NCBI GenBank assembly: GCA_965207365.1
Contig: OZ242281.1
Span: forward strand, 500,362-564,361
Length of the DNA stretch: 64,000 nt
Direction of reading: 5' to 3'
DNA from: Dehalococcoidia bacterium
GTDB taxonomy: Bacteria > Chloroflexota > Dehalococcoidia > Bin125
The translations under genes and the position numbers were made by a program. Of the stretch, positions 13,920 through 63,769 are shown one piece after another; position 1 is the first letter of the stretch; each line of letters opens with the position of its first letter. The notes below the pieces were generated by a model. The model did not search any database. It worked only from the letters and a program-made list of their open reading frames with translations, and was not told where the DNA came from.

Positions 13920-13920
13920 A

Positions 13921-37359: not shown

Positions 37360-37442
37360 GTTGCATTCCCGTCCATGGCAATCTCACGGCGGAGCATAGC
37401 TGGACCGATGCTCCCGGGACGGCTGCACAATGGTCAGCACTC

Positions 37443-37592: not shown

Positions 37593-37654
37593 TTGCAAAG
37601 GTCTCCTACACGCGGGGACGAGCTCCTTCGCCAGGATCAGGAGCGAACAAGAGG

Positions 37655-38707: not shown

Positions 38708-38885
38708 CGGCTCCCTCCCGTCCTCAGCGCAGCCCACAGGTGCGATCCGACCAAACTGCATGTGCAACACTGACGATGTCTGGAGGCGTCGACAGGTCCA
38801 CAGCGTCTGGGAAGGGTAGTTGAGTGACGGCTCGTCGCAACGACCTGACATCACAGACTTCCCCACGGGTTGGGAACTCGTCGCC

Positions 38886-42222: not shown

Positions 42223-43545
42223 ATGACGACACCAGTTGCAACTGACGCGATGTACCGCAACGACGAAGGACTAGGAATCTGGGAGCACCGAGGAAAAGTC
42301 GCCGCGGTCGGTGTCGGCCATGCGCCGACAGCGCGCCGCTGGGACGGCCGTCCCGAGACCTGCGTCGGCGCGATCAGCATTCAGGCGTTGCGCCAGGCGA
42401 TTGCCGACGCAGGCGTCGCGCCCGATCAGATCGATGGACTGGTCGTCGTCCGCGAAACCACGACCGGCGCGTTCTGGGAAGACGGCAAGCCGCTTCCGAT
42501 GGACGTGATCCAGAGCTTCCAACAGACGGACGATCCACTCGACGGCATCGCAAAGCTCAGCGCCGAGTGGCTGCTGGCCAACATGCCTGAGCTGAGCAAT
42601 GTCAAGTTCACGATGTACGGTCCCGGCTGCATGTCGAATGCACTCAACGTGACGGCCCAGGCCGTCGGCGACGGTCTCGCACACACCTGCCTGGTCGTCA
42701 AGAGCTGGCACAACTTCGAGGGTCGCTACTACCAGGGTGGAGCCAATGCCGGCGAAGCGCTGCCTGGCACCCCCGCCATCACTCAGCTCTGGGGCGGTCC
42801 CGCCTCGTACAGCACGGCGTTGCAATTCGCCGAATATTGCCGCAAGTACGGCAAGACCCACGAGATGATGGCGCCCTTCATGGAGAACTCGCGCCGCAAC
42901 GGCCTCAGGTTCCCCGAGGGCTATTGGGCCCAGCACCGGCCCGAGGAACTGGGACCGGAGGACTATCTCGCCTCGCGCTGGATCGCCAAGCCGGCCAACC
43001 TGTTCGACAACGACATTCCGATCATGATGTCCGGCGCATACCTGTTCTCGACGGCCGAACGCGCCGCCGACATGAAGCAGAAGCCGGTCTACATCCTCAA
43101 TCACGCCTCCAGCAACACGAGGCCGCGCAGCTTGCTGCCCACGCTCGATGAGGTCGAAGACGACACGGCCCGCACCGGCCGCAAGATCTACGAGGGCGCA
43201 GGCATCACCGCCGACGATCTCTCCTTCGAGAACATGTACGACGGCTTCTCACTCTTCCACCAGTTCCACCTGGAAGGCCTGGGTTATCGCGGGATCAAGT
43301 TCGGCGAGGCGCTGGACTTCTATGCGACCGATATCAGCATCGAAGGCCCCAACCCGGTCTCGCCCAGCGGCGGCAACGTCGGCAGCGGACGCAGCCGAGT
43401 CTGGATGCACACCGACTGCATCCAACAACTCCAGGGCCGAGCCGGGGAGAGGCAGGTCACCGGCGTCAAGCCAGAAGTCGCCGTCTCGGGAGGGCCAACG
43501 CCCCTCGGAGGAAACTTCACCGTCTGGAGCGCCAGCCCCGACTAA
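42223..43545 (+). CDS. thiolase-like protein (SCP-x / lipid-transfer-protein type), second copy
   Basis: 440 aa with a thiolase-like fold. Confidence 0.75.
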   Translation: MTTPVATDAMYRNDEGLGIWEHRGKVAAVGVGHAPTARRWDGRPETCVGAISIQALRQAIADAGVAPDQIDGLVVVRETTTGAFWEDGKPLPMDVIQSFQQTDDPLDGIAKLSAEWLLANMPELSNVKFTMYGPGCMSNALNVTAQAVGDGLAHTCLVVKSWHNFEGRYYQGGANAGEALPGTPAITQLWGGPASYSTALQFAEYCRKYGKTHEMMAPFMENSRRNGLRFPEGYWAQHRPEELGPEDYLASRWIAKPANLFDNDIPIMMSGAYLFSTAERAADMKQKPVYILNHASSNTRPRSLLPTLDEVEDDTARTGRKIYEGAGITADDLSFENMYDGFSLFHQFHLEGLGYRGIKFGEALDFYATDISIEGPNPVSPSGGNVGSGRSRVWMHTDCIQQLQGRAGERQVTGVKPEVAVSGGPTPLGGNFTVWSASPD

Positions 43546-43587
43546 GACCATCACACGTGGTCGCGTCCTACCCACCTCGAGCGCACC

Positions 43588-43645
43588 CCCTACTCCCCGC
43601 TCCCCCTTGCAGGGGGAGCTGCCGTAGGCTGAGGGGGTCCCGCTC
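43588..43645. repeat. short family-A sub-unit
   Basis: ctccccgctcccccttgcagggggagctgccgtaggctgagggggtcccgctccc. Confidence 0.6.
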
Positions 43646-44080: not shown

Positions 44081-44171
44081 TCGGCTGACGCCGTCCAGGG
44101 AAAGCGACTCGAACGACCGTCCACGAGCACGAAATCCGAATCCCGGCCCCGCGCAAAGGAGAGTTTTGAAG

Positions 44172-44332
44172 CACTCCCCCTCTCCCCCCCTTGCGGGGGG
44201 AGATGCCGAAGGCAGAGGGGGGGGGTCCGCTGTTCGGGAGCCATATCTGGTCATTGTCAACCGACCCCCCCCCTCTGTCACTCCGTGACATCTCCCCCCG
44301 CAAGGGGGGGAGAGGGGAATCGGGAGTTTTTC
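44172..44332. repeat. MITE-like palindromic repeat (family A core)
   Basis: ctctccccccccttgcggggggagatgccgaaggcagaggggggggg...ccccccccctctgtcactccgtgacatctccccccgcaagggggggagagggg. Confidence 0.7.
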
Positions 44333-44373: not shown

Positions 44374-44640
44374 CTACTTCTTGGCCCGAATCGGCTCATC
44401 CCAATCGATCCCACAGTTCGAGCACCATCGATTGAGCCACACGTCGCCGGCCGAACTCTCGTCTCCGCGTTCCGCGTGGATCTGTCCGCCGCAGCGGCAC
44501 GGTCGAGGGAACCTGGACAAGCAACCGGCGCAGCGATCATCGTCCTGATGCGTCTGTACGAACTGCGGGTGCAAGGACAAGCTCATCCCCGAGCACCTCT
44601 CCCCCTCGTCTGGAATCGACAGTCTAACGCCTGTTCGCAT
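44374..44640 (-). CDS. small Cys-rich (zinc-ribbon-like) protein
   Basis: CAGC...CRC...CSNC pairs. It lies downstream of the EBP-like gene on the same strand, and the start may be an internal Met. Confidence 0.3.
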   Translation of the reverse strand: MRTGVRLSIPDEGERCSGMSLSLHPQFVQTHQDDDRCAGCLSRFPRPCRCGGQIHAERGDESSAGDVWLNRWCSNCGIDWDEPIRAKK

Positions 44641-44662
44641 CCCGCTCTCGATCGAGCTCGCA

Positions 44663-45373
44663 CTAATCCATGCCCAACACGCTGTAGTCGCCGTCCAGGA
44701 TCAGGCGAATGGAGATGTACATTCCCACGATCGGAATCAACACCCAGACGGCGTTTGGGCCCATGATGTAGATGTAGAACTGCCTCGGGGTGATACGGCT
44801 CCATTTCTGACCGACGAAGAAGCTGACCAGATAAAGCGACGACGCATAGACCCACTGCCAGAACAGCATCGCCCCAACAATGCCGACAGCAACGGCCGGC
44901 AGCACGCCGGCCGTGTACGCCGCGTACAGGACCGCTGTCGACGCAGGAGTGGTGAACCCATTCGCGATATCGATGTTGAATCCGTACGTGTTTCGATCGG
45001 CGTACGCCGAATCAAACATCGAGTAGGTCGCCCAAACATCAACCCAGACCGTCGGAGACAGGACTCGGGCGAGCGGCACCCGCGTGGTCAGGAACACGAG
45101 GGCAGGTGTCCGGCCAGTAGCGCTCCACTCTCTGCGCCAGTGTTCCGCGCGCTCCTCGATGTAGTCCCTGCGGAAGTAGAGGCACACTTCCCAGAAGCAG
45201 ATCAGCAGGTTGGTCGCGAAGAACACGCTGAACAGGAATTGAAAGGCGTTCAGATCGCCATGGATGTAGTAGCGAACGAGGATGCCCGGCAACGCCAGGA
45301 GCGCGATCGCCAGCACTGCGAGCAGACCTGCCGGCGCGCCCCATCCGCCCGTTTGCTCGCTCGCGCTACTCAA
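44663..45373 (-). CDS. EBP-like (EXPERA domain) sterol delta8-delta7 isomerase candidate
   Basis: 236-aa 4-TM protein. FYIYIMGPNAVWVLIPIVG parallels human EBP FWFYFVFMNALWLVLIPGILV. FWEVCLYF...EHW parallels EGWFVLYY...LWKEY. Sterol-pathway context supports it. Confidence 0.5.
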   Translation of the reverse strand: MSSASEQTGGWGAPAGLLAVLAIALLALPGILVRYYIHGDLNAFQFLFSVFFATNLLICFWEVCLYFRRDYIEERAEHWRREWSATGRTPALVFLTTRVPLARVLSPTVWVDVWATYSMFDSAYADRNTYGFNIDIANGFTTPASTAVLYAAYTAGVLPAVAVGIVGAMLFWQWVYASSLYLVSFFVGQKWSRITPRQFYIYIMGPNAVWVLIPIVGMYISIRLILDGDYSVLGMD

Positions 45374-45581
45374 ACCGACAGACCTTCTTCGCTACACAGA
45401 TTGACCCGACCACTCCCGCCAGATCAAGTGTGCATCATAGCGACACTTCACCTCTTCAGAGTCGCTTTGCGCAAGTCGGGTCGCCTGACACTGTCCGTTC
45501 CGATCTTGAAGGTCTACCTGGCAGCGATTATCTTCGACTTCATCCACACCCTGTCAGCCCAATGCACAGTGTGAGAGCCAC

Positions 45582-46676
45582 ATGGACTCAGAGCGATCTG
45601 ACATCGCCTCCGGCACATCAGCGCCGCCCTTGTTCCTGACGGGGGCGGCTGGCCATGTCGGGGCCAATCTGGTGCGCCGCTTGCTCGATGACGGCGCTCG
45701 GGTCCGGGTGCTGCTGAGACACGAGGACAACAACGAAGCCATAGATGGGCTCGACGTCGAGCGCGTCTATGGCGACATCCGCGATCTAGAAGCGACGCGG
45801 CAAGCGCTCGCCGGATGTCATGGCGTCTTCCACACGGCCGCGCTCGTATCCACAATCGACGGCGACGATACGCATCGGCGCGATGTCTTCGAGAGCAACG
45901 TGATCGGCACTCGTAACGTGCTCCAGGCAGCGCAAGAGTTCGACGCTGGACGAGTAGTAGTCACCGGCTCGTTTAGCGCAGTTGGCTACGACCTCGACGA
46001 TCCGTCAGCTCCGTCCAAGGAGTCGATGCCGTTCTTTCCCATGGAACGCACGATGCCATACGAGCGCAGCAAGGCGATGGTCGAAACCGAGTGCTGGCAT
46101 GCGGCGGCAAACGGTCAAGATGTTGTGATTGCCACGTCCTGTGCGGTCGTCGGCGGCAACGACTTCATGCCCTCGCGCATGGGTCGGACGCTGGTCGACT
46201 TCGCCAACGGCAAGCTGCACGCCTATGTCGATGGTGGGTTCGAGTTCGTCGCGGCGGAAGACATCGTGCAGGGACATATGCTCAGCATGGAGCGCGGGCG
46301 AACAGGGCAGAAGTACATCTTCAGCTCCGAGTACCAGACGATCTCCAACATGTTGGATCTGTTTCAGGAGGTTTCGGGCATACGGCGACCGCGGCGGCAG
46401 ATACCCGTCAGCCTGATGTTGCCGATGTCAGTCGTGGTGAGCAACGTCCTCAGCCGGCTGCGCCCAAACGACCCACAGCGATTCACCCCTGGCGCGATCC
46501 GACTCCTGCAGAAGTGCCGTCACGCCGACACCAGCAAGGCGAAAGAGGAATTGGGCTTTCAGCCGACAACGATGCGCGCCGCGGTTCGCGACGCGTACGC
46601 GTTCCACTATCAGCGCAAGGCCATCACCAATTCACGGGCGAAGCGCCCCGAATCGATCGTCCCGGAGGATGAGTAG
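45582..46676 (+). CDS. NAD(P)-dependent 3beta-hydroxysteroid dehydrogenase / epimerase-dehydratase family (SdmB/ERG26-like C-4 demethylation component)
   Basis: Extended-SDR GAAGHVG Rossmann motif and YERSK catalytic motif. Adjacent to a Rieske oxygenase, as in the described bacterial SdmA/SdmB pair. Confidence 0.75.
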   Translation: MDSERSDIASGTSAPPLFLTGAAGHVGANLVRRLLDDGARVRVLLRHEDNNEAIDGLDVERVYGDIRDLEATRQALAGCHGVFHTAALVSTIDGDDTHRRDVFESNVIGTRNVLQAAQEFDAGRVVVTGSFSAVGYDLDDPSAPSKESMPFFPMERTMPYERSKAMVETECWHAAANGQDVVIATSCAVVGGNDFMPSRMGRTLVDFANGKLHAYVDGGFEFVAAEDIVQGHMLSMERGRTGQKYIFSSEYQTISNMLDLFQEVSGIRRPRRQIPVSLMLPMSVVVSNVLSRLRPNDPQRFTPGAIRLLQKCRHADTSKAKEELGFQPTTMRAAVRDAYAFHYQRKAITNSRAKRPESIVPEDE

Positions 46677-46710
46677 TCATGACCAGTCCAGTGACCGCCG
46701 CAACTTCTGA

Positions 46711-47832
46711 ATGGCTCGCGACATGAGTGTCGATACAGATGCAACAACGGTCCGGCCGCCGGCCTTTGGCAGTGAGGGCAACCTGCGCCAACAGGCGCGC
46801 GCGGCGGGCATGAACCCGGACTACTGGTACGCCGTCGAGGAAGTGCGGAACGTCAAGCCGGGCGCGGTGACCGAAGTAGTGTTCTGGAAGCAATCAATCG
46901 CGCTCTACCGGTCGGAGGACGGCTCATTTCACGCGATTGAGAATCGTTGCCTGCACCGCCAGGTCAAACTCTCGCTAGGCGAGGTCGAAGGTTGCCAACT
47001 CGTCTGTGGCTACCACGGCTGGCAGTACGACGAAGACGGCAAGGTCGCTGACATTCCCGACCTGTTCGGTCGCAACCAGGTACCGAAGCTCTCTGTGCGG
47101 TCCTATCCGGTGCAAGTCCGCTACGGACTGGTCTGGATCTTCCCAGGAGATCCAGCACTATCGGAGGAGCGCCAGATCCCGGAAATCCCCGAGCTCGAAG
47201 GGTCCGGGCGATGGGCCTGTGTACCCCTGACGTTCGACCTTGCGGCACACCACTCGATCATCATCGACAACGTGAGCGATTTCTCTCACGCCTACCTGCA
47301 TCGTCAATATCGACCGTTCGACGGCGCCACGCTAACGCGGCATGAGACGATCGGCGACGACGTGCACTTGGCCTACGAGACCCGTGTCGGGCGCGGACGC
47401 ATCTCTGGATTGTTCGTCGATCACGATCGCCTCAACACGAATCACATGGAGCTCTGCTTCGAGTATCCCTACCAGCGATCAAACACAGATGACGAAATCA
47501 AACACTGGCTCTTCGTCCTACCCATCGATGAGCGGAGGACGCGAACGTTCTTCCTCTTCTACTTCAGGTCGCTCAAAATCCCCATGCTTCCGGTTCGCAT
47601 TCCTCGTTGGGCCATGACCACCGTCCTGCGCCTGGCCAATCGCATGTTGATCGGCCCACTGCTCTCACAGGACCGCTGGGCGGTGGAGGCTGAGCAAACG
47701 GGTTACGAGACGAACTGGGATGCCGCTCCCATCGAGGTCAATCCGGTCGTTCGCTCGTTCCAGCAGGTGACAGTCCGCAAGTGGCAGGAGCACCTGGACC
47801 GCGAAACCGCCACAAGCGCGAACGATGCCTGA
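46711..47832 (+). CDS. Rieske [2Fe-2S] non-heme iron oxygenase (SdmA-like sterol C-4 methyl oxidase candidate)
   Basis: CLHR...CGYHGW Rieske motif and a DNVSDFSHAYLH mononuclear-iron motif. 373 aa. Confidence 0.75.
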   Translation: MARDMSVDTDATTVRPPAFGSEGNLRQQARAAGMNPDYWYAVEEVRNVKPGAVTEVVFWKQSIALYRSEDGSFHAIENRCLHRQVKLSLGEVEGCQLVCGYHGWQYDEDGKVADIPDLFGRNQVPKLSVRSYPVQVRYGLVWIFPGDPALSEERQIPEIPELEGSGRWACVPLTFDLAAHHSIIIDNVSDFSHAYLHRQYRPFDGATLTRHETIGDDVHLAYETRVGRGRISGLFVDHDRLNTNHMELCFEYPYQRSNTDDEIKHWLFVLPIDERRTRTFFLFYFRSLKIPMLPVRIPRWAMTTVLRLANRMLIGPLLSQDRWAVEAEQTGYETNWDAAPIEVNPVVRSFQQVTVRKWQEHLDRETATSANDA

Positions 47833-48922
47833 TATCCCCTCGGAGTGGACGGCCGTATCAGGCCAGCGCCTGCTCGAGGCAGCGGGGATATTCCTGCTGT
47901 TCGTCGGAGTTCTGCTGCTCGGTTCAAAATATGTACCGGGCCGCAAGGCGGTAGGCAGGCCTGATCCTGACGGCGTGACGCGCACTTACAACCTCAACGG
48001 GCTGGCGCTGTTCTTGTTCGTCATGCTGCTGGCCGTGCTCGGCGATGTCTTCGACGTCATCTCACTCTCGGTGCTGCACACACACTTTGCCGAGCTGTTC
48101 ATCGTGGCCAACGTCTTCGCCTGTCTACTCTCAGCCGGGTTGTATTGGCAAGGGTCGCGTCTCCGAAGCGAATCGCCCGGTCTGCTGCGCGGGTTCTTTT
48201 TCGGCCGCCAGCTCAATCCATCCTGGCTTGGGGTCGACCTGAAGCTGTTTAGCTACCGACCATCCCTCATTTCGCTGGCATTGTTCAATGTGTCGTTTGC
48301 CGCAGTCCAGTACGACACGCACGGTGAGTTCACGCTACAGATGCTCTTGTACCAGGCGTTCACGTTCATATACGTCCTGAACTACTTTCAGTTTGAGCAT
48401 GGCATGATCTTCACCTGGGACATCGTCGCTGAGCGCTTTGGCTGGATGTTGATCTGGGGAGACTATGTCCTGGTGCCGTTCTTCTATTGCCTGGCAGGAT
48501 GGTGGTTGTTGGATACCACGGACTCGATACCGATCTGGGCGGCGCTATTGATCTGCTTGCTGTTTGTCGTGGGATTCTGCATGTTCCGCGGCGCCAACGA
48601 ACAGAAGCACCGGTTCAAGCAGAATGCGGAGAGTTCTATCTGGGGACGGCCGGCCGAGACACTTGACGGGCGACTGCTGGTGTCCGGCTTCTGGGGTGTA
48701 GGCCGACATCTGAATTACTCCGGCGAGATTTGCGTGTACGTTGCATTTGCGCTGACGACCGCGTTCGCGTCCTGGATCCCGTTTGCATTGCCGGTCTGGC
48801 TGACGGCGCTGTTGTGGCATCGTGCGTGGCGCGACGACCGTCGCTGCCGAACCAAGTACGGCGAACTCTGGGAGCGCTACACGCAGCGGGTACCATACGC
48901 ATTGATCCCGCGCGTCTACTAG
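47825..48922 (+). CDS. sterol reductase, ERG4/ERG24 family (C-14 reductase candidate)
   Basis: C-terminal LLVSGFWGVGRHLNYSGEI...RAWRDDRRCRTKYGELWERYTQRVPYALIPRVY is the family hallmark. It overlaps the upstream gene by 8 bp. Confidence 0.8.
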   Translation: MPDIPSEWTAVSGQRLLEAAGIFLLFVGVLLLGSKYVPGRKAVGRPDPDGVTRTYNLNGLALFLFVMLLAVLGDVFDVISLSVLHTHFAELFIVANVFACLLSAGLYWQGSRLRSESPGLLRGFFFGRQLNPSWLGVDLKLFSYRPSLISLALFNVSFAAVQYDTHGEFTLQMLLYQAFTFIYVLNYFQFEHGMIFTWDIVAERFGWMLIWGDYVLVPFFYCLAGWWLLDTTDSIPIWAALLICLLFVVGFCMFRGANEQKHRFKQNAESSIWGRPAETLDGRLLVSGFWGVGRHLNYSGEICVYVAFALTTAFASWIPFALPVWLTALLWHRAWRDDRRCRTKYGELWERYTQRVPYALIPRVY

Positions 48923-48954
48923 AGTCGGCGCTTCAGGGTCTGTTGAGGTCAGAG

Positions 48955-50343
48955 ATGGTTCAACTGCGCAGCGCTCCGACGGCTCCACAAGATGAACGGG
49001 CACTTCCGGAGCTGAGTGGCGGGGCGCCGCTGATTGGTCACCTGCGGGACTTTCAACGCGACCCGGTGGCCATGATCAGCCGCGGTTGGGATCAGTTGGG
49101 CGAACTGTTCCGATTCCGACTTGGTCCCCGCCAGTTTGTGCTCTTCTGCGGACCCGAGGCGCATGACGCCTTCTTCAGCGCACCCGAGGACCAACTGAAC
49201 GCCAAGGAGGTCTATCAGTTCACCGTTCCAATCTTCGGTCGTGGCGTGGCCTACGATGTCGCGCCCTCGATCATGGACGAGCAGCTCGGCTTTCTCTATC
49301 CAGCACTCCGGGAATCCGCGATGCAAGAGTTCGCCCGGATCATGTACGAGGAAACGGCGCTCCTCGCCGATTCCCTCGGCGAGGAAGGCGTGCTCGATCT
49401 GCCGGAAGCGATGAACGAACTGACCGTGAATATCGCCAGTCGCAGTCTGATCGGACAGGAAGTCCGCGATCAGGTGGACGCGGGCTTCGCCGATGCCTAT
49501 CACGACCTGCAGAAAGGCATCAACACCCTGGGTTTCTTTCTGCCCCGGCTTCCCACTCCCGCGCATCGCAGCCGCGACCGGGCACGTAAACAGGTAGCCG
49601 AAATCTTTGGCCGGATTATGTCGGCCCGTCGTCGTGCCGATGCACGCCCTGACGACTTCATGCAAACGCTCATGGACGCGACCTACAGCGATGGCCGCTC
49701 GTTGAGTGATGACGAGATCACGGGAATCCTCTTGACCGTGTTGTTCGCCGGTCAGCACACCAGCGCAGTGCTCGCCACCTGGACCGGCCTGGAACTCGTC
49801 AAAGCTTCCTCGTACGCGGAACGTGTCAGAGATGAAACGGCCGCCGTGTACGGCGATACCGGGAACATGAGCCTTGAGGGCCTGAGACAACAGGTGACCA
49901 TGGAGCATGCCGTACGCGAGGGGGAACGTCTCCACCCGCCGCTGATCATCCTGATCCGCAAGGTGCTCAAGCCGATGCGCTACGGAGACTACGTGGTGCC
50001 TGAAGGTGCGCTAGCGATGGTCTCGCCGGCGGTTTCTCACCGGTTGCCGCATCTGTTCGCCAACCCGGACCAATTCGACCCGGACCGCTACGCTGAACCC
50101 GCTCGCGAGGACAAACAGCATCCCTACGCCTTGATCGGCTTCGGCGGAGGCAAGCATCGCTGTATGGGCAAGCACTTTGCCGAGATGCAGGTCAAAGCCA
50201 TCTGGACCGTGCTGCTCGATCGCTTCGACTTCAGTCCCGACACTGAGTTTCCGACCCCCAACTACGGCAGTTGGGTCACTGGTCCCGTGACACCCTGCCG
50301 CATCCGATACCGGCGCCGCTCGTCAGGCAGAGTCTTCCGGTGA
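48955..50343 (+). CDS. cyp51: cytochrome P450 CYP51 (sterol 14-alpha-demethylase)
   Basis: FGGGKHRCMG heme-binding loop and the AGQHTS helix-I signature typical of CYP51. The start was chosen at ATG 48955. Confidence 0.8.
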   Translation: MVQLRSAPTAPQDERALPELSGGAPLIGHLRDFQRDPVAMISRGWDQLGELFRFRLGPRQFVLFCGPEAHDAFFSAPEDQLNAKEVYQFTVPIFGRGVAYDVAPSIMDEQLGFLYPALRESAMQEFARIMYEETALLADSLGEEGVLDLPEAMNELTVNIASRSLIGQEVRDQVDAGFADAYHDLQKGINTLGFFLPRLPTPAHRSRDRARKQVAEIFGRIMSARRRADARPDDFMQTLMDATYSDGRSLSDDEITGILLTVLFAGQHTSAVLATWTGLELVKASSYAERVRDETAAVYGDTGNMSLEGLRQQVTMEHAVREGERLHPPLIILIRKVLKPMRYGDYVVPEGALAMVSPAVSHRLPHLFANPDQFDPDRYAEPAREDKQHPYALIGFGGGKHRCMGKHFAEMQVKAIWTVLLDRFDFSPDTEFPTPNYGSWVTGPVTPCRIRYRRRSSGRVFR

Positions 50344-53300
50344 CTGAGACCGGCTTGAGCCGATACGACGTGGCGATCGTCGGCGCCGGACCTGTCGGCA
50401 GCCTGTGCGCGATTGCTCACGCACGCAAGGGTTATCGAGTCGCGCTCTTTGAGGCGAATCCGTCCGCGTCTGAACGACTGGCCGGTGAGTGGCTGCATCC
50501 TCCAGCCGCACGAATCCTGCGTGATTTCGGGATATCGGTTCATGCCGAAGCTCGGGACGGCTCGGGCAAAGGCTTCGCGGTGTTCCCGGATGACGGCCAC
50601 GAGCCAATCGTGCTTCCCTACTCGGACGGATCGCGCGGGTTGGTGTGTGAACACGCGACGCTGGTCACACGCCTACGCGAGACGGCGGACGCGGAGCACG
50701 GTGTCGACCTCAGACTTCACGCCCGCGTACACACCGTCGAAGACGAGCGGATGACGTACTCGCAGGACGGCGCAAGCCACACCGTTGTCGCAGAGCGGAT
50801 CGTCGGCGCCGACGGCCGATCGTCTGTGGTCCGTCGTTCCTTGGGCCTGGCAACAAGATCGAAAACTGCTTCGCGCATGATTGCGCTCACGTTGGAGGGC
50901 GCCCGGCTGCCGCTGGAGGGCTACGGGCACGTCGTGTGTGGCGCTCCGGGCCCGATGCTGATCTATCGCCTGAGCGACGATCTCGTCCGGGCCGTCATTG
51001 ACATCCCACTGGACCATGCGCCTCAAGACTGGAAGGGCCTCCTGTCGGACTCGTATGCCCGCTGGTTGCCGGAACCGCTCCGGGCGCCGTTCGTCGAGGC
51101 GTGGTCGGAAGACCGTGTACACGCCGCCGCCAATGCCGTCAGCCCACGGGTCACCTACGGCACCTCTCGTCGAGTGCTGATTGGCGATGCGGCGGGACAC
51201 TACCACCCCTTGACCGCCACGGGACTCACGCTGGGCTTTGGCGACGCCATCGCACTGGCGGAGAGCGAACAGTTCGAAGACTTTCGGAACGAGCGATTCG
51301 AGGCGACGAGAGTTCCGGAACTGCTGGCGATGGGACTCTACGAGGCGTTTGCCGATCAGCGGGCCGAAGCGGCCGTGCTGCGGCAGGCGATGTTTGGTCG
51401 CTGGAGGACCAGTGCAGCGGTACGTAACCACACCGTGCGGCTGCTTGCCTGTGAAGATACCTCGGTGGCCAGGCTGAGTCGGGAGTTCTCGATGACGGTG
51501 GCCTGGGCGCTAAAGGCCGCTGTCCCGAGATCGCTCGACCCTCTAGCCTGGAGCCGCTTCGGCGAGGTCGCTCGCGGACTGAGCAACCGGATGGGCTGGC
51601 TCCTGCGAGGCGCCTGGAATCTGCACAGCGTCAGACGATCCGGCAAAGCCGGACCCGAACGGCCCACCGAGACGCTGTCCCGCGCATTTCTGACCTCCAT
51701 GCCATCGGCGCCGTCCATGCCATCGGCGCCAACAGGGCGGCCACGAGACGGCGACCTGCGTCAGGCCGATGCCCTGTCGCCCGATGCCGTGCCACCTGAT
51801 GCTGGTCCGGCGATCCAGGACGCCGCCGCGCGTCTGTTGGACCTCCAGGCCGAGGATGGCAGTTGGGAAGGCGAGATGGTCTGGTGCCCAATGATCACGG
51901 CGCAGTGGGTACTGCTGCAACACATCATTGGACGGCCCATCGATCCCAAGCGACGCGAGCAGATCCTGCGTTACTTCGAGCAGTCCCGGTTGCCGGAGGG
52001 ATCGTGGGGCTTGCACGACCACTCACATCCCTATGTGTTTGTCACCGCCCTGGTCTACGTGGCGTCACGACTGCTCAGCGTTGAGCGGGACGATCCGCTG
52101 GTCGAGCCGGCGCGACGATTCCTCCAGCAGGAAGGCACTCTGAGCATCCCAAGCTGGGGCAAGTTCTGGCTGGCGCTGCTCAATCTCTACGAGTGGAGTG
52201 GAATCCATCCCGTGCTCCCCGAGCTCTGGAGCCTACCCCGCCAACTGCCATTGCATCCCTCGAACTGGTATTGCCACACTCGGCTGATCTACATGGCCAT
52301 GGCCGCGATCTACCCGCGTCGGTTCCAGACGCCTGTCACACCACTGATCGAGTCTTTGCGGGAAGAATTGTTCCCCCAGGGGTTTGAAACCATCGACTTT
52401 CCAGCGCAACGCAACCACCTGCGCCAGGCCGACCTCTTCGCCAAGCCGACAGCATTGCTGAGAGCGGGGTACCGGGGCGCGGAGCTGCTGGAGCGATTCC
52501 ATAGCAAAGGCCTACGCGCCAGGTCGATGGATGAGCTGATCGGTCAGATCAAGTGGGAACTGAACACGACTGATCACACGAGCATCTCTCCGGTCAGCGG
52601 CCTGCTCAACATCCTCGCCTTGTGGCTGCACGATCCCGACGACGGCGACTGCAACCGAGCGCTGGAGCAGGTCAACCAATGGTTCTGGGAAGACGAGGAG
52701 CATGGCGCCCGCATGACCGGCGCCAGAAGCGCCTCGTGGGACACCGGTTTCGCGCTGCAGGCGCTGTCGACGGCGCCTCAGATTGGCGACTTGCCCGACG
52801 CGTTACAGCGCGGGACTACTTACCTGCGCCAGCAGCAGGTCGGTACCAGCGTTCCGGGCTATCGCGAGGCGTATCGGAACGACCCGAAGGGCGGTTGGTG
52901 TTTCGCGGCGCAATGGCACGGTTGGCCGGTGACGGACTGCACGGCGGAAGCCGTGCTGGGGATTCTGGCAGCCGATCCCACATCGATCAGCGCGACGGCA
53001 CTCCGCGATGCGATTGGCTTCATGCTGCGTGGCCAGAATCGCGATGGCGGATTCGGCAGCTACGAGGCGCAGCGCTCCAGGATCGAACTCGAGCGAGTCA
53101 ATCCCGCCGAGATGTTCGGCGAATCAATGACCGAGCACTCATTTGTCGAATGCACGGCATCCTGCCTGGCCGCACTCGTCGCTTGCCGGACGCACTTCCC
53201 GGAGATCATCGATCGGGACACGGAACGCGCCATCTTGCAAGCGGACGCCTGCCTCCGCCGGACTCAGCACAGCGACGGCTCCTGGCGCGGAGTGTGGGGT

Positions 53301-53729
53301 GTGCAGTTCATCTACGGCACGTTCTTCGGGATCAAAGGCCTGGTCGCCAATGGAGCGCAGCCGAATGATCCGGCGCTCAACGCGGCATGCAGATGGCTAT
53401 TGGATCGCCAAAAGGACGACGGAGGATGGGGCGAGCATCACAGCGGTTGCATGACCGGCCAGTACGTCCAACACGAGGAGAGTCAGGTGATCCAGACCGC
53501 CTGGGCGTTAATCGCCTTGCTGGAGGCAGGCGCGTCGGACTGGCAGGCCATTGCGCGTGGCGCTCAGTTCCTGATCGACCGGCAGTGCCCGGATGGGACC
53601 TGGCCCAAACAAGACATGGCCGGGGTCTTTTTCCGCACCGCACTGCTGGATTACGTCCTCTACCGCCAGTACTTCCCGTTGCACGCCCTCGGCTTGTACG
53701 AAGAGCGGCGCAAGACCCGCAGCGTCTGA
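50340..53729 (+). CDS. fused squalene monooxygenase (epoxidase) - oxidosqualene cyclase
   Basis: The N-half has a DVAIVGAGPVGS FAD fold and GDAAGHYHPLTATGLTLG (SQMO motif). A linker carries a tandem MPSAPS repeat. The C-half has the VTDCTAEAV (DCTAE) catalytic motif and QW repeats (GGWGEH, DGSWRGVWG). GTG start at 50340 overlaps the CYP51 stop. Confidence 0.85.
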   Translation: MTETGLSRYDVAIVGAGPVGSLCAIAHARKGYRVALFEANPSASERLAGEWLHPPAARILRDFGISVHAEARDGSGKGFAVFPDDGHEPIVLPYSDGSRGLVCEHATLVTRLRETADAEHGVDLRLHARVHTVEDERMTYSQDGASHTVVAERIVGADGRSSVVRRSLGLATRSKTASRMIALTLEGARLPLEGYGHVVCGAPGPMLIYRLSDDLVRAVIDIPLDHAPQDWKGLLSDSYARWLPEPLRAPFVEAWSEDRVHAAANAVSPRVTYGTSRRVLIGDAAGHYHPLTATGLTLGFGDAIALAESEQFEDFRNERFEATRVPELLAMGLYEAFADQRAEAAVLRQAMFGRWRTSAAVRNHTVRLLACEDTSVARLSREFSMTVAWALKAAVPRSLDPLAWSRFGEVARGLSNRMGWLLRGAWNLHSVRRSGKAGPERPTETLSRAFLTSMPSAPSMPSAPTGRPRDGDLRQADALSPDAVPPDAGPAIQDAAARLLDLQAEDGSWEGEMVWCPMITAQWVLLQHIIGRPIDPKRREQILRYFEQSRLPEGSWGLHDHSHPYVFVTALVYVASRLLSVERDDPLVEPARRFLQQEGTLSIPSWGKFWLALLNLYEWSGIHPVLPELWSLPRQLPLHPSNWYCHTRLIYMAMAAIYPRRFQTPVTPLIESLREELFPQGFETIDFPAQRNHLRQADLFAKPTALLRAGYRGAELLERFHSKGLRARSMDELIGQIKWELNTTDHTSISPVSGLLNILALWLHDPDDGDCNRALEQVNQWFWEDEEHGARMTGARSASWDTGFALQALSTAPQIGDLPDALQRGTTYLRQQQVGTSVPGYREAYRNDPKGGWCFAAQWHGWPVTDCTAEAVLGILAADPTSISATALRDAIGFMLRGQNRDGGFGSYEAQRSRIELERVNPAEMFGESMTEHSFVECTASCLAALVACRTHFPEIIDRDTERAILQADACLRRTQHSDGSWRGVWGVQFIYGTFFGIKGLVANGAQPNDPALNAACRWLLDRQKDDGGWGEHHSGCMTGQYVQHEESQVIQTAWALIALLEAGASDWQAIARGAQFLIDRQCPDGTWPKQDMAGVFFRTALLDYVLYRQYFPLHALGLYEERRKTRSV

Positions 53730-53759
53730 CCCTGTCCGCAATGTTCCTCGCCGCGTGGC

Positions 53760-54791
53760 TCAGTTCTCGGTCTGTTCGGGCTTTCGGGCCAGGTAGTAGA
53801 ACATCGGCGTAAACACGCCGGCCTCCCCGCCCTCGACCAGCGCATCCGCGCCCGCATTCAACACGCTGCTGATCTCCCGAGCGCCCTCAGGAACGATCCG
53901 CAGCTTCTCTCCGACTCGCAACGTCAGATTGGTCAAGGCTCGGCCAATCGGCGTTCGTGGCAAACTCGCCAAGCTCAGATCACGGCCCTGCAAGGGGCGA
54001 TACCAGGGGGTCTCCGAATCCGATTCGGGGGCGAGGTCGCGAGCTTCCACGACCTCGAACCCTGCTGCAACCAGCGCCGAACTGATCTCCGATGTGTGCG
54101 CAATATCCGGAAGTCCGTTGCCCTTCATGACGTCCTGCTTGATGCGCACGTGTTCGGCGTTCTCGGGATCGTAAGAATCCGTGAGACACCATTCGAAGCC
54201 GGCAAACTCGCCGCCCGGACGCAGCACGCGGAAGATCTCCCGGAACACTGCGGTCTTGTCGGGCGCGTGCGGTGTGGCTTCGATGTTGATCGCAGCGTCA
54301 AACTGGTCGTCAGCTTCAGGAATGTCCATGTAGTCGCCGTGAATGAATCGGCACTGCGACTGCAAATCCCTCGTGTGGTGTTTGGCGCGATCGATCTGGT
54401 ACGCGTTCAGATTGATTCCAACAAAGTTCGCTCCAGTGCGGCGGGCCAAATTGGCCATCGGTCCGCCGACCCCACAGCCAACATCCAGCACCTGCATGCC
54501 CGAGTTCATGGCTAACTGTTGGGCGAGAAAGTGCTCGTGCCGCAGCATCGATTCGTTGAAACTCTCGCCGCGGCGTCGGGGCGCAAAGTGAAATGACCGA
54601 CCCCAACCGAACTCGTAGAAATCAGTCGCAAGGTTGTAGTAGTGATTGACGACCGCGTGATAGCGATCTTTGCGTTGTTCGAGGCTCCCATCGAACAGCC
54701 CCGAATAGTCCTCAACCGCAGGCTTGATCTCCTCAGGATCCAGGTCGCCAACAGAGCGACCACTCGACCGCTTGGCAAACAGACGGCTCAT
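53760..54791 (-). CDS. sterol 24-C-methyltransferase (ERG6/SMT family)
   Basis: YEFGWGRSFHFA (SMT region I) and LDVGCGVGGP SAM motif. 343 aa. Confidence 0.8.
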   Translation of the reverse strand: MSRLFAKRSSGRSVGDLDPEEIKPAVEDYSGLFDGSLEQRKDRYHAVVNHYYNLATDFYEFGWGRSFHFAPRRRGESFNESMLRHEHFLAQQLAMNSGMQVLDVGCGVGGPMANLARRTGANFVGINLNAYQIDRAKHHTRDLQSQCRFIHGDYMDIPEADDQFDAAINIEATPHAPDKTAVFREIFRVLRPGGEFAGFEWCLTDSYDPENAEHVRIKQDVMKGNGLPDIAHTSEISSALVAAGFEVVEARDLAPESDSETPWYRPLQGRDLSLASLPRTPIGRALTNLTLRVGEKLRIVPEGAREISSVLNAGADALVEGGEAGVFTPMFYYLARKPEQTEN

Positions 54792-55141: not shown

Positions 55142-55340
55142 GAACGATGCATAACTCCCCTTCTCCCCCTTGCGGGGGAGATGCCGAAGGCAGAGGGGGG
55201 TGCCCTGTTTGCTCGCCTATCTGGTCAGCATCGGCCGCCCCCCCTTCTGTCACTCCGTGACATCTCCCCCCGCAGGGGGGGGAGAGGAGAATTGCGGGTT
55301 ATGCATCGGTCTCTGTTAGGGGGAGCGGGGAATGCTGGCG
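55142..55340. repeat. MITE-like palindromic repeat (family A, full copy with gatgcataactcc / ggttatgcatcggtct termini)
   Basis: Highly similar to 34725-34925 and 61007-61205. Confidence 0.75.
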
Positions 55341-55378: not shown

Positions 55379-56468
55379 CTAGGCGACCGATCGCTTGGCG
55401 ATCACCTCTCGGCCGAAGTCGGCGACCAAATCGCGCGCGCCGGCGGCGTTCGTACAGGCAATGGCGACGTTGTCAATGCCGTCCGCTTCCATCTGCTCGA
55501 GCCGTTCGATGATCTGCGCCGGTGTGCCGGTCAGCGTCTGGCCAATCGAGGTCTCGCTGATGAACTGTTCCTCTCCCGGCTTGAGAAAGACCATGTGGCC
55601 CGTATGCACGTCCAGATACCGCCGATCTGGCTGACTGCCACGTGCGTCGCCGTACTCCACGATGTAGCGATGGAACGCAGCAGCAGCGTCGGGATCCTCG
55701 ATCCCCAGGTTCGCTCCCGGCCCATAGTGAGACTCCCACATCGCATGCAGACCCGGTAGCGCGTTCGGGCCCACCCGCTCGACCACACGCGGGGACATGA
55801 GCGACTCGCCGCCGCGCAGCACACAGCCACTGGTCAAGCCGACCGTGTACGGCTTGTCGGTCGACCGCCCGGCGGCGGCAGCGGCGACGCGTATCGTTTC
55901 GAAGCCCGTCTCGAGGTCGCGTGTGAGTGCGCCGGTCACCCAGCCGTCGGCGAGTTCGCCCGTCGCTGCCAGCGCCCTCGGACCATTCGCGGCGAGATAG
56001 ATCGGGATGTCGTCCTCGATATTGATGAAATCTCCACGATCCGGATGCAGCAACCGAATCCAACGCTCTCGCGTGCCTTCGCGAATCAGCACTTCCTCGC
56101 CCTGCAGCAGGCCGCGGACTTGCTGCGTGTACTCGCGGAACTCCGCGGCCGGCACGGCTGGCAGACCCATGGTGTTGCGACCGGTGTAGCCCGTGCCCAG
56201 ACCCAGAATGACCCGTCCGGGCGCCAGGTAGTTGATCGTGGCGATGGCGGAAGCTGTCACCGCCGGGATGCGGTTGCTCGGGATCGCCACCAGGGTGCCC
56301 AGCTTGATCCGGCTGGTGTGCTCCGCCGCCAAAGCCATGGTGGCGTAGACATCGCTGTAGATCAGTTGCGAATCAAAGAACCAGGCGTGCGTGAAGCCCG
56401 CCGCTTCAGCCGCGGCCGCGTCGCGCCACGCATCGATGTATGAGGGAAAGGCAATGCCGTAGTCCATG
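55379..56468 (-). CDS. LLM-class (luciferase-like) flavin/F420-dependent oxidoreductase
   Basis: The start was chosen at the internal Met (MDYGIAFPSY) of ORF 55379..56590. TIM-barrel LLM pattern (WFFDSQL, GLGTGYTG). Confidence 0.7.
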
Positions 56469-56639
56469 GAGCCTCCTGAAGTCGGATCGATTTCGCAAGG
56501 AAGATAGACGACCACAATCTCCCCCCCCCACCTCCCGCGACTGGGTGCCATCGACGCTGTTTCATTTCGTCGGAGCCCGGCCGCTTGCAACGCAAACCAG
56601 GCTCAACCGATGCCATACTGCATCCAAAGGGAACTCAGG

Positions 56640-57542: not shown

Positions 57543-57745
57543 GTTGTGCATCAGTCTCTTACGGCGGGAGCTGCCGAATCCCTGTCCCCTTTCTCCCCCC
57601 CTTGCGGGGGGAGATGCCGAAGGCAGAGGGGGGGCCGGCTTGGGCACGAGAGGTGAGATCCGGTGTTGGGAGGTTGCGCGACGTACCCCCCCCTCTGTCG
57701 CAAGGCGACATCTCCCCCCGCAGGGGGGAGAGGGTATTCGGGAGT
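57543..57745. repeat. MITE-like palindromic repeat (family A variant)
   Basis: gtgcatcagtctcttacggcgggagctgccg...ctcccccccttgcggggggagatgccgaaggcagaggggggg...ccccccctctgtcgcaaggcgacatctccccccgcaggggggagaggg. Confidence 0.65.
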
Positions 57746-63760: not shown

Positions 63761-63769
63761 CTCTCAACC

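What the first reader, a model, noticed from the sequence alone, without database searches (positions are those of the whole stretch)
44374..54791. Near-complete eukaryote-like sterol biosynthesis cluster with a single-polypeptide squalene epoxidase-oxidosqualene cyclase fusion
Seven sterol-pathway genes are contiguous within about 10 kb.
- An EBP-like 4-TM protein (44663-45373) whose C-terminal helix matches the EBP sterol 8,7-isomerase (NAVWVLIPIVG vs NALWLVLIPG).
- An SdmB-like 3beta-HSD/epimerase (45582-46676) next to an SdmA-like Rieske oxygenase (46711-47832). This is the bacterial C-4 demethylation pair.
- An ERG4/ERG24-family sterol reductase (47825-48922).
- CYP51 with AGQHTS and FGGGKHRCMG (48955-50343).
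- One ORF of about 1130 aa (50340-53729) that fuses a squalene monooxygenase (GDAAGHYHPLTATGLTLG) to an oxidosqualene cyclase (VTDCTAEAV, QW motifs) through a MPSAPSMPSAPS linker.
- A convergent ERG6-type C-24 sterol methyltransferase (YEFGWGRSFHFA, LDVGCGVGGP) at 53760-54791.

Start/stop overlaps (GTGA at 50340-50343, an 8-bp overlap at 47825-47832) indicate translational coupling. Bacterial sterol producers are rare. Having C-24 methylation, an EBP isomerase and a physical SQMO-OSC fusion together in one cluster is unusual. It bears on the use of 24-alkyl steranes as eukaryote biomarkers.
Basis: partly seen in the sequence, partly recalled or inferred. Interest (0 to 1): 0.85.

Follow-up and report, generated by a model that had tools for sequence, protein, structure and literature searches.

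The report
Sponge-symbiont bacterial sterol gene cluster
This is a real seven-gene bacterial sterol-synthesis cluster of a type already described in sponge symbionts, fused epoxidase-cyclase included; the one apparently undescribed part is a small membrane protein with the fold of the eukaryotic sterol isomerase EBP.

Summary
All seven ORFs exist at the stated coordinates, and every cited motif and both start/stop overlaps are present. Six assignments are firm: SdmB-like, SdmA-like Rieske, Δ14-sterol reductase, CYP51, one 1129-aa squalene epoxidase–oxidosqualene cyclase (SE-OSC) fusion, and a sterol C-24 methyltransferase. The fusion is not an artefact: 78 of 80 related loci carry it as one uninterrupted ORF.

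The novelty claim does not hold. [quoted passage not shown] Methyltransferases from such clusters were assayed by Brown 2023. The window is about 93% identical to a public Chloroflexi MAG.

The parts
44663..45373 (-). EBP-like membrane protein (236 aa, five predicted TM helices). It belongs to an unannotated EXPERA-fold family and is a candidate sterol delta8->delta7 isomerase.
45582..46676 (+). SdmB-like NAD(P)-dependent 3beta-hydroxysteroid dehydrogenase/decarboxylase (bacterial C-4 demethylation).
   Evidence: Pfam Epimerase and 3Beta_HSD. Best NCBIfam hit is SdmB NF052578 at 308 bits, below the 600-bit equivalog cut-off. Conserved in 67 of 80 loci.
46711..47832 (+). SdmA-like Rieske oxygenase (4-methylsterol monooxygenase).
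   Evidence: Pfam Rieske + VanA_C. Best NCBIfam hit is SdmA NF052579 at 402 bits, below the 600-bit cut-off. CxH...CxxH motif at aa 80-102. Conserved in 67 of 80 loci.
47825..48922 (+). Delta14-sterol reductase (ERG24 type). Its start overlaps the sdmA stop by 8 bp.
   Evidence: PF01222, 230 bits. Best PDB hit 4QUV, delta(14)-sterol reductase, E 7e-73. Overlap ATGCCTGA read directly.
48955..50343 (+). CYP51 sterol 14alpha-demethylase.
   Evidence: p450, 184 bits. PDB hits at E<=1e-30 are almost all CYP51; best E 3.7e-103. AGQHTS and FGGGKHRCMG motifs present.
50340..51689 (+). Squalene epoxidase half of the fusion protein (aa 1-450). It includes FAD motifs and a C-terminal tail that is probably membrane-associated.
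   Evidence: PF08491 SE and PF01494. Human SQLE 6C6N, E 7e-24. VGAGPVG and GDAAGHYHP motifs conserved across 81 sequences. The GTG start overlaps the CYP51 stop.
51690..51809 (+). Pro/Ser/Ala-rich linker of the fusion (about aa 451-490, includes MPSAPSMPSAP).
   Evidence: Least conserved stretch of the protein. Mean column identity is 0.23 for aa 451-480, against 0.45-0.86 elsewhere.
51810..53729 (+). Oxidosqualene cyclase half of the fusion (aa 491-1129).
   Evidence: SQHop_cyclase_N/C. TIGR01787, 519 bits, above cut-off. Human lanosterol synthase 1W6K, E 2e-137. Catalytic D455/C456 and the A/H/V pattern at human positions 381/449/453 are invariant in 81 of 81 sequences.
53760..54791 (-). Sterol C-24 methyltransferase (ERG6/SMT type), convergent with the fusion gene across a 30-bp gap.
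   Evidence: Methyltransf_11 + Sterol_MT_C, 72 bits against a 21.7-bit cut-off. YEFGWGRSFHFA and LDVGCGVGGP motifs present. An SMT is found in 56 of 80 loci.
44170..44322 (.). Copy of a ~140-nt palindromic MITE/REP-like repeat just outside the EBP-like gene. It marks the left boundary and is not a pathway part. Coordinates are approximate.
   Evidence: Core match at 44200-44223, one of 7 copies in the window with 0 expected by chance. Alignment A4.
55148..55300 (.). Second copy of the same repeat, just outside the SMT gene (right boundary). Coordinates are approximate.
   Evidence: Core match at 55178-55201. Folds as a long hairpin, -98 kcal/mol, z -7.0.

Best explanation
The region is a bacterial sterol-biosynthesis cluster of the sponge-symbiont type, published as the msb locus and as 'clusters of steroid genes' (CSGs). 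It sits in a Dehalococcoidia (Chloroflexota) genome closely related to a public Chloroflexi MAG.

Inferred pathway:
1. Squalene is made elsewhere in the genome.
2. The N-terminal flavoprotein half of the fusion epoxidises it.
3. The C-terminal half cyclises 2,3-oxidosqualene to a lanosterol-type protosterol. Joining the two monotopic membrane enzymes plausibly hands over the epoxide directly.
4. CYP51 removes the 14alpha-methyl group.
5. The ERG24-type reductase saturates delta14.
6. SdmA and SdmB remove C-4 methyl group(s).
7. The SMT alkylates C-24.
8. The seventh gene encodes a divergent EXPERA-fold membrane protein, which I propose shifts the nuclear double bond from delta8 to delta7. The expected product is a 24-alkylated delta7 (or delta8) 4-desmethyl or 4-methyl sterol.

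What is shown: gene identities, the integrity and conservation of the fusion, the fold of the seventh protein and its linkage to sterol genes. What is inferred: every enzymatic step, the cyclase product, and above all the isomerase activity. Confidence in the cluster identity is about 0.9. Confidence that the seventh protein is a sterol double-bond isomerase is about 0.5.
For: Cluster and fusion:
- Domain and structure-sequence matches for six genes. Motifs and overlaps verified.
- The same gene order sdmB-sdmA-ERG24-CYP51-fusion occurs in about 60 loci of more than 8 phyla. The fusion protein is 60-93% identical across them.
- The fusion is a single ORF in 78 of 80 loci and the linker is its most variable part.
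- The window is 93% nucleotide-identical and syntenic to MPNM01000011, Chloroflexi bin125.
- Published descriptions of the same cluster: PMC7074536, PMC9531527, PMC10070321.

Seventh gene:
- hhalign 78-80% probability. It pairs W114~W101, Y117~Y104, D121~D108, Y124~Y111, D135~E122, N207~N193 and W210~W196 confidently, and E62~E80 with low confidence. That covers 8 of the 11 alanine-scan determinants listed in PMC4263179.
- These residues are invariant or at least 90% conserved across a 57-member divergent alignment.
- The gene is a median 210 bp from a sterol gene in 33 loci, in three different arrangements.
- Distant members sit in other sterol or steroid contexts (L081, L087).
Against: - No enzyme activity has been measured for any gene in this window.
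- The EBP-like protein fails Pfam's EBP/EXPERA model.
- The family has no conserved histidine. The proposed EBP proton donor His76 aligns, in a low-confidence stretch, with Ile58. H76A abolishes EBP activity (PMC6549186). R110 and T125 also differ.
- Other EXPERA proteins (TMEM97, TM6SF2) are not demonstrated isomerases.
- Only 33 of 80 loci have the gene within 10 kb.
- The cyclase pattern A/H/V at human positions 381/449/453 is neither the canonical lanosterol nor the cycloartenol pattern, so the protosterol is uncertain.
- The SdmA and SdmB scores are below NCBIfam equivalog cut-offs.
- No squalene synthase or redox partners lie in the window.
Confidence: 0.85

Rival explanations
1. The seventh protein is not an isomerase. 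It is a non-catalytic sterol-binding, sensing or trafficking membrane protein like sigma-2/TMEM97, or it catalyses a different rearrangement, for example delta8->delta8(14), delta9(11)->delta8 after a parkeol-type cyclisation, or a side-chain double-bond shift.
For: His76, the proposed general acid of EBP, has no counterpart, and no histidine is conserved in the family. EXPERA members other than EBP have no proven isomerase activity (PMC4263179). More than half of the related loci lack the gene nearby. The cyclase residue pattern is atypical, so the substrate's double-bond position is not certain.
Confidence: 0.35
2. The cluster makes the aglycone of a specialised triterpenoid, a sarasinoside-like norlanostane saponin, rather than membrane sterols. 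This was proposed for the homologous msb locus.
For: Mohanty et al. 2020 assigned the homologous msb locus to sarasinoside biosynthesis. Kelly et al. report that locus as the best public BLASTn match to their clusters.
Against: None of the window's major ORFs annotated here is a glycosyltransferase. The cluster occurs in symbionts of many sponge genera and phyla. Brown et al. showed that SMTs from such clusters methylate ordinary sterol side chains at C-24. The msb-to-sarasinoside link in the paper is itself only a hypothesis.
Confidence: 0.1
3. The locus is eukaryotic (sponge host or alga) DNA mis-binned into a bacterial contig, or the 1129-aa ORF is an assembly artefact joining two genes.
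For: Five of the seven proteins belong to families best known from eukaryotes.
Against: Genes overlap by 4 and 8 bp, are intron-free, and are flanked by typical bacterial genes. The same cluster lies inside complete 2-7 Mb bacterial chromosomes. C-4 demethylation is the bacterial SdmAB type. The fusion is intact in 78 of 80 independent assemblies.
Confidence: 0.01

Closest known systems
msb locus of a gamma-proteobacterial symbiont of the sponge Melophlus sarasinorum (MT026193; Mohanty et al. 2020, PMC7074536)
   Same: [quoted passage not shown] Squalene synthase is encoded elsewhere.
   Different: The host phylum differs (Chloroflexota here). The authors found no sterol-related genes at either end of msb, whereas this window has the EXPERA-fold gene 208 bp upstream of sdmB. 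They proposed a saponin aglycone as the product.
Clusters of steroid genes (CSGs) of sponge-symbiont MAGs (Kelly et al. 2022, PMC9531527) and the SMT-containing sterol clusters of Brown et al. 2023 (PMC10070321)
   Same: ERG24-CYP51-LSS core, flanked 5' by 'DFR' (= sdmB) and a hypothetical protein (= sdmA) and 3' by an opposite-strand SMT. Found in Dehalococcoidia among 10 phyla, with evidence for horizontal transfer and purifying selection. Brown's tables show a single gene matching both ERG1 and ERG7 and mention 'fused SMO/OSC homologs'. SMTs from such clusters were shown to make 24-methyl to 24-isopropyl side chains.
   Different: Neither paper describes the EBP-like gene. Kelly mentions ERG2 in some clusters, which is an unrelated fold. 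This window has one SMT, whereas several published clusters have two.
Human EBP (3beta-hydroxysteroid delta8,delta7-isomerase; PDB 6OHT) and the EXPERA superfamily (EBP, TMEM97/sigma-2, TM6SF1/2)
   Different: About 10% identity. Not detected by Pfam PF05241. There is an insertion of about 30 residues after TM2. His76 is replaced by Ile, Arg110 by Ala and Thr125 by an invariant Asn. The family is mainly bacterial with some apparently eukaryotic members. [quoted passage not shown]
Methylococcus capsulatus / Methylotuvimicrobium sterol pathway (separate SQMO and OSC, CYP51, SdmAB, sterol reductase MaSR1)
   Same: Bacterial SdmA/SdmB C-4 demethylation. CYP51 and the delta14-reductase are the closest solved structures (6MCW/7JJ1 and 4QUV).
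   Different: There the epoxidase and cyclase are separate genes, CYP51 is fused to a ferredoxin, and there is no SMT. The reported C-8 isomerase is not shown to belong to this family.

Membership tests
Sponge-symbiont sterol cluster (msb / CSG type) | Gene content and order: sdmB-sdmA-ERG24-CYP51-(SE-OSC), with an SMT on the opposite strand at the 3' end | tested here: met
   ORF map, domains, identical order in about 60 related loci. Matches the descriptions.
Sponge-symbiont sterol cluster (msb / CSG type) | Host is a sponge-associated bacterium | tested here: inconclusive
   The window's source is not given and its fusion protein is not on record. It is 93% identical to MPNM01000011, Chloroflexi bin125. 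Many related records carry sponge-symbiont names. Kelly et al. list a Chloroflexota A. aerophoba MAG with a CSG. That MPNM bins come from Aplysina is from my memory only.
Squalene epoxidase-oxidosqualene cyclase fusion (MsbE type) | A single uninterrupted ORF with SE/FAD domains N-terminal and both cyclase domains C-terminal | tested here: met
   Single ORF in 78 of 80 loci.
Oxidosqualene cyclase, lanosterol-synthase type | Catalytic Asp in DCTAE (human D455) and neighbouring Cys | tested here: met
   VTDCTAEA aligned to human 1W6K. Invariant in 81 of 81 sequences.
Oxidosqualene cyclase, lanosterol-synthase type | Product-specificity residues T381 / C or Q449 / V453 (human numbering) | tested here: inconclusive
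   The window has A / H / V. V453 fits lanosterol, which is the criterion Mohanty et al. used. H449 is the cycloartenol-synthase residue and A381 is neither (the residue roles are from my own knowledge of CAS1 mutagenesis). The product must be measured.
CYP51 sterol 14alpha-demethylase | Closest relatives are CYP51s; I-helix AGQHTS and heme-Cys signature present | tested here: met
   PDB hits at E<=1e-30 are almost all CYP51; best 3.7e-103. Motifs found.
ERG4/ERG24 sterol reductase (delta14 type) | PF01222 above threshold and closest to characterised delta14-reductases | tested here: met
   230 bits against a 27-bit cut-off. 4QUV at E 7e-73. Regiospecificity (delta14 versus delta7 or delta24) was not tested.
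SdmA/SdmB bacterial C-4 demethylase pair | Adjacent Rieske oxygenase and NAD(P) 3beta-HSD-type genes whose best family hits are SdmA and SdmB | tested here: inconclusive
   They are the best NCBIfam hits but score below the equivalog cut-offs (402 and 308 bits against 600). The Rieske motif is intact. Whether one or both C-4 methyls are removed is not testable here.
Sterol C-24 methyltransferase (ERG6/SMT) | Class I SAM-MTase domain plus the sterol-MT C-terminal domain and the Region I motif YEFGWG | tested here: met
   PF08498, 72 bits against a 21.7-bit cut-off. Motifs found.
Sterol C-24 methyltransferase (ERG6/SMT) | Methylates the sterol side chain (number of methyl transfers) | not testable with these tools
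   Homologues from similar clusters were active in vitro (PMC10070321). This protein was not compared with them because no sequences are held.
EBP / EXPERA superfamily | EXPERA fold (five-TM EBP-like bundle) | tested here: met
EBP / EXPERA superfamily | Sequence match to Pfam PF05241 at the gathering threshold | tested here: not met
   No hit for the window protein at E<=10. Only sub-threshold hits in 9 of 57 relatives, best E 0.0029. Profile-profile comparison gives 78-80% probability.
EBP / EXPERA superfamily | Superfamily-wide acidic residues at EBP positions 80 and 108 | tested here: met
   D121~D108 lies in the confident part of the alignment. E62~E80 lies in the low-confidence extension, with the same register in two alignment modes. 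Both are at least 90% conserved.
EBP sterol delta8,delta7-isomerase proper | Catalytic set H76, E80, E122, W196 (plus N193) | tested here: not met
   E80, E122 (as Asp), N193 and W196 have equivalents. H76 aligns with Ile58 and no His is conserved in the family. H76A inactivates EBP. It therefore should not be filed as an EBP orthologue, though it may still work as an isomerase with a different proton donor.
EBP sterol delta8,delta7-isomerase proper | Isomerase activity on delta8-sterols | not testable with these tools
   Needs erg2-deletion complementation or an in vitro assay.

The most novel reading that the evidence does not exclude
The EBP-like ORF founds an unrecognised, histidine-less branch of the EXPERA superfamily that acts as the nuclear double-bond (delta8->delta7) isomerase of bacterial sterol pathways. 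It travels by horizontal transfer with the sterol cluster among sponge symbionts of many phyla. It also occurs in other bacterial steroid-modifying operons and in some microbial eukaryotes. If so, EBP-type isomerisation is not a purely eukaryotic invention. It would also mean uncultured symbionts can push 24-alkyl sterols one step further towards 'eukaryote-like' end products than the published six-gene model allows.
Probability: 0.45. Interest if true: 0.6.

Novelty: new member of a known kind. Interest (0 to 1): 0.42.

Why it matters
The cluster bears on whether 24-alkyl steranes, including the 24-isopropylcholestane 'sponge biomarker', can be read as strictly eukaryotic or animal signals. 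That point has already been made and partly tested by others, so this window adds one more instance, from a Chloroflexota symbiont.

What this analysis adds is a candidate for a missing step. The published bacterial models stop at C-14 and C-4 demethylation plus C-24 alkylation and list no nuclear double-bond isomerase in these clusters. An EXPERA-fold protein that standard annotation cannot see is the most frequent extra neighbour of the cluster found here. It would explain how symbionts could make delta7-sterols, and it gives experimenters a specific gene to add to heterologous pathway reconstructions.

It also offers a natural test of the EBP mechanism, because the family retains the carboxylates and the cation-pi tryptophan but lacks the proposed histidine proton donor.

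The natural epoxidase-cyclase fusion is known but biochemically uncharacterised. It is a ready-made system for studying channelling of oxidosqualene.

Tried and rejected
EBP-like ORF:
- Pfam at E<=10 and NCBIfam gave nothing.
- An HMMER profile of the sponge-type family against all PDB sequences gave only a chance hit to ArcB.
- hhalign with a shallow 38-sequence profile aligned only the last helix: probability 7% against one EBP sequence and 29% against an EBP profile. A deeper 57-sequence profile from the exhaustive search was required.
- The AFDB50 fold library was unavailable.
- Model coordinates are not exposed, so the His76 question rests on a low-confidence sequence alignment and not on a superposition.

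Other dead ends:
- The look-up of encoding contigs has no record of the window's fusion protein.
- Brown et al.'s supplements hold no sequences, so the window's SMT could not be matched to an assayed enzyme.
- Promoter and terminator scans across the cluster were at or below chance.
- No Rfam family matches anywhere in the window.
- EBP-like and fusion identities correlate across loci (rho 0.77), but only because Dehalococcoidia differ from the rest. Within the other phyla rho is about 0, so this is not evidence of co-transfer.

Considered and rejected:
- Fusion as an assembly artefact.
- Eukaryotic contamination.
- ERG2-type isomerase as a recurrent alternative neighbour: none was found among ORF families present in at least 5 loci.
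- The upstream thiolase-like gene as part of the cluster: it is conserved only in the closest relatives.

Full report

Yes.

Six assignments are secure.
- 45582-46676: Pfam Epimerase/3beta-HSD. The best NCBIfam hit is SdmB.
- 46711-47832: Rieske + VanA_C, with an intact CxH...CxxH motif. The best NCBIfam hit is SdmA.
- 47825-48922: ERG4_ERG24 at 230 bits. The best PDB hit is the delta14-sterol reductase 4QUV, E 7e-73.
- 48955-50343: a P450 whose PDB hits at E<=1e-30 are almost all CYP51, best 3.7e-103.
- 50340-53729: one open frame. SE/FAD domains occupy residues 9-383 and both cyclase domains occupy residues 492-1121. The halves match human squalene monooxygenase (7e-24) and human lanosterol synthase (2e-137).
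- 53760-54791, minus strand: a class I methyltransferase domain plus the sterol-specific C-terminal domain at 72 bits.

Every quoted motif is present. Both start/stop overlaps can be read in the DNA. The seventh ORF (44663-45373, minus strand) has no Pfam or NCBIfam match even at permissive thresholds.

**2. Is the fusion genuine?**

A scan of one genome per GTDB species found 410 stretches encoding a relative. The 80 best loci carry the full-length protein at 60-93% identity.
- In 78 of these 80 loci a single stop-free frame spans both halves. The other two are truncated by contig ends.
- Many of the loci lie in complete multi-megabase chromosomes.
- The Pro/Ser/Ala-rich linker (about aa 451-490) is the least conserved stretch. 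Mean column identity is 0.23 for aa 451-480.
- The FAD motifs and the cyclase catalytic Asp-Cys are invariant.

**3. Where does it come from, and is it new?**

The window is 93% nucleotide-identical and syntenic over about 20 kb with MPNM01000011, 'Chloroflexi bacterium bin125'. It is 72-91% identical at protein level to other Dehalococcoidia MAGs.

The same gene order (sdmB-sdmA-ERG24-CYP51-fusion, usually with an SMT nearby) recurs in about 60 loci. These are assigned to Binatia, Nitrospirales, Gamma- and Alphaproteobacteria, Acidobacteriota, Verrucomicrobiota, Bacteroidota, Thermodesulfobacteriota and others. Many carry sponge-symbiont names.

This is a published phenomenon.
- Mohanty et al. 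2020 described the msb locus of a Melophlus symbiont. [quoted passage not shown] Squalene synthase is encoded elsewhere.
- Kelly et al. 2022 found such 'clusters of steroid genes' in 115 of 537 Ircinia MAGs from 10 phyla, Dehalococcoidia included. The clusters had the same flanking genes and were absent from Tara Oceans MAGs. They showed signs of horizontal transfer and purifying selection. Two Aplysina aerophoba MAGs also had them, one of them Chloroflexota.
- Brown et al. 2023 list clusters in which one gene matches both ERG1 and ERG7, mention 'fused SMO/OSC homologs', and showed in vitro that SMTs from such clusters build 24-methyl to 24-isopropyl side chains.

The core cluster, the fusion and the biomarker argument are therefore already known. 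This window is a further member.

**4. The seventh gene**

This is the part that earlier papers did not recognise. Mohanty et al. state that genes at either end of msb bear no resemblance to sterol genes.

Family and linkage:
- It belongs to a family of 419 proteins at 90% clustering, all 'hypothetical' and none with a Pfam domain.
- An exhaustive HMMER search widens the family to 324 clusters at 50% identity.
- Among the 80 related loci it is the most frequent neighbour after the six core genes, present in 33 loci.
- It lies a median 210 bp (maximum 4.5 kb) from a core gene, in three different arrangements: beside sdmB in Dehalococcoidia, and beside the SMT or the fusion gene in at least seven other lineages. 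Linkage that survives rearrangement argues for a shared function.
- A member only 42% identical sits beside squalene synthase, the fusion, P450, ERG24, sdmA and sdmB on a 3.4-Mb contig.
- A 32%-identical member sits in a P450-Rieske-Rieske-X-3betaHSD run.
- Others lie among P450s, or near a 3beta-HSD gene and beside a SnoaL/LEH-type gene.
- One 22%-identical member is on a contig with Nop16 and WD40 genes, which suggests a eukaryotic origin.

**5. What is the seventh protein?**

Sequence methods alone fail. A profile search of PDB sequences finds nothing. Foldseek finds nothing.

With a deeper 57-sequence profile:
- hhalign matches a vertebrate EBP profile at 78% probability (E 1.8e-5) over 112 columns.
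- With greedier settings it reaches 80% over 194 columns.
- Nine of the 57 members give sub-threshold Pfam EBP hits, more than for any other family.

Mapping onto the 11 alanine-scan determinants of EBP activity (H76, E80, W101, Y104, D108, R110, Y111, E122, T125, N193, W196; PMC4263179):
- Identical: W114~W101, Y117~Y104, D121~D108, Y124~Y111, N207~N193, W210~W196. E62~E80 is also identical but lies in the low-confidence N-terminal extension.
- Conservative: D135~E122.
- Different: I58~H76 (also in the low-confidence extension), A123~R110, N138~T125.

The matched residues are invariant or at least 90% conserved across the divergent family. In EBP, His76 is the proposed proton donor to C9, Trp196 stabilises the C8 carbocation, Glu80 removes the C7 proton and Glu122 supports Glu80. 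H76A and E80A are inactive (PMC6549186).

The family therefore keeps the carboxylates, the cation-pi tryptophan and the cavity aromatics, but has no histidine. My reading is that it is a divergent EXPERA-fold enzyme that most probably isomerises the nuclear double bond (delta8->delta7) using a carboxylate as the acid. It should not be filed as an EBP orthologue. A non-catalytic sterol-binding role, or a different rearrangement, remains a serious rival.

The literature I could search holds no description of this family.
- Hoshino and Gaucher infer that EBP evolved within eukaryotes.
- Canonical EBP homologues are reported in Nannocystis.
- Other bacterial 'C-8 isomerases' are mentioned without reference to this family.

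Absence from the searched library does not prove that the family is undescribed.

**6. How the cluster most likely works (inferred)**

- Squalene, made elsewhere, is epoxidised and cyclised by the two halves of one polypeptide. Both parent enzymes are monotopic membrane proteins, so the fusion plausibly passes oxidosqualene directly and fixes a 1:1 stoichiometry.
- The cyclase has Val at human position 453, the criterion used for 'lanosterol'. It has His at 449 and Ala at 381, a pattern that is invariant in all 81 sequences. The product (lanosterol, parkeol or a mixture) needs measuring.
- CYP51 and the ERG24-type reductase then remove the 14-methyl group and saturate delta14.
- SdmA and SdmB remove one or both C-4 methyls. 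Their scores are below the methanotroph-based equivalog cut-offs.
- The SMT alkylates C-24.
- The EXPERA-fold protein would give delta7 sterols.
- No C-5 desaturase, delta7-reductase or delta24-reductase, no squalene synthase and no redox partners are in the window. 'Near-complete' applies only up to delta8/delta7 24-alkyl sterols.
- The tight spacing and overlaps fit an sdmB-to-fusion operon, with the EBP-like gene divergent and the SMT convergent. Consensus promoter and terminator scans were uninformative.

**7. Verdict**

- Observation: confirmed.
- Interpretation: partly supported. The identities are right, but the rarity and novelty are overstated.
- Novelty: a new member of a known kind.
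- Residual novelty: a plausibly unrecognised EXPERA-fold family linked to sterol clusters.
- Interest: moderate. A specialist would not be surprised by the cluster or the fusion. They would probably want to test the seventh gene.

Noticed in passing
window ~34735-34885, 37440-37590, 44170-44322, 55148-55300, 57580-57730, 61025-61175, 63615-63765 (core matches at 34767, 37471, 44200, 55178, 57611, 61057, 63645): A ~140-nt GC-rich palindromic MITE/REP-like element with long terminal inverted repeats. There are 7 intergenic copies, all in the 3' half of the window, with 0 expected by chance. Two copies bracket the sterol cluster exactly. It is also present in the related MAG contig L001. It folds as a long hairpin (-98 kcal/mol, z -7) and has no Rfam match.
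   Followed up: partly
window 28000-32722: A low-GC patch (0.52-0.57 against about 0.62) holds a 901-aa single-chain restriction-modification enzyme (N6_Mtase, Eco57I and MmeI-like domains, 29050-31755). A DUF1295 membrane protein follows at 31868-32722; the ERG24-type reductase in this window also gives a secondary hit to that Pfam family. This looks like a horizontally acquired island. No link to the sterol cluster was found.
   Followed up: no
window 42223-43627 and the wider window (4665-5837, 10395-15150, 35457-40019, 55379-56590): A thiolase-like 'lipid-transfer protein' ORF, with an overlapping small ORF, sits just upstream of the cluster. It is conserved only in the closest relatives. 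The window is rich in luciferase-like monooxygenases (3), family III CoA-transferases (2), an acyl-CoA dehydrogenase, an enolase-superfamily enzyme and a phosphotriesterase. From memory, this catabolic repertoire is typical of SAR202-type Chloroflexota.
   Followed up: no
L036:13382-15403 and 22 other related loci (e.g. L014, L017, L043, L061): A 673-aa protein that fuses an N-terminal GPP34 (Golgi phosphoprotein 3-like, lipid-binding) domain to a cytochrome P450 recurs next to the SE-OSC fusion in 23 loci. These include loci that lack the CYP51/ERG24/SdmAB genes. It may be a different tailoring route. It is not present in the window.
   Followed up: partly
L032:2268-4562 (10 loci) and L040:13424-14851 (16 loci): Two other recurrent neighbours of the cluster in other phyla. 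One is an MMPL/RND transporter with a sterol-sensing-domain match, a candidate sterol exporter. The other is an amine-oxidase-type flavoprotein. The flavoprotein in L081, beside a squalene synthase, carries the same Pfam domain but was not shown to belong to this group.
   Followed up: partly
L026, L028, L041 (Acidimicrobiia) and L029: In some genomes the SE-OSC fusion gene stands alone, with none of the other core sterol genes within 10 kb. This suggests protosterol-only producers or dispersed pathways.
   Followed up: no
L087:2410-8062 and L088:10001-10828: Distant members of the EBP-like family occur in a P450-Rieske(KshA-like)-Rieske-X-3betaHSD operon on a non-sponge metagenome contig. One also occurs on a contig with Nop16 and WD40 genes that looks eukaryotic. 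Several distant members carry Ser/Arg-rich N-terminal extensions. The family may span both domains.
   Followed up: partly
window 52722-52724, 52917-52919, 52929-52931 (fusion aa 795, 860, 864): The cyclase product-specificity positions read Ala/His/Val (human 381/449/453) and are invariant in all 81 fused cyclases. This combination is neither the canonical lanosterol-synthase pattern nor the cycloartenol-synthase pattern.
   Followed up: partly
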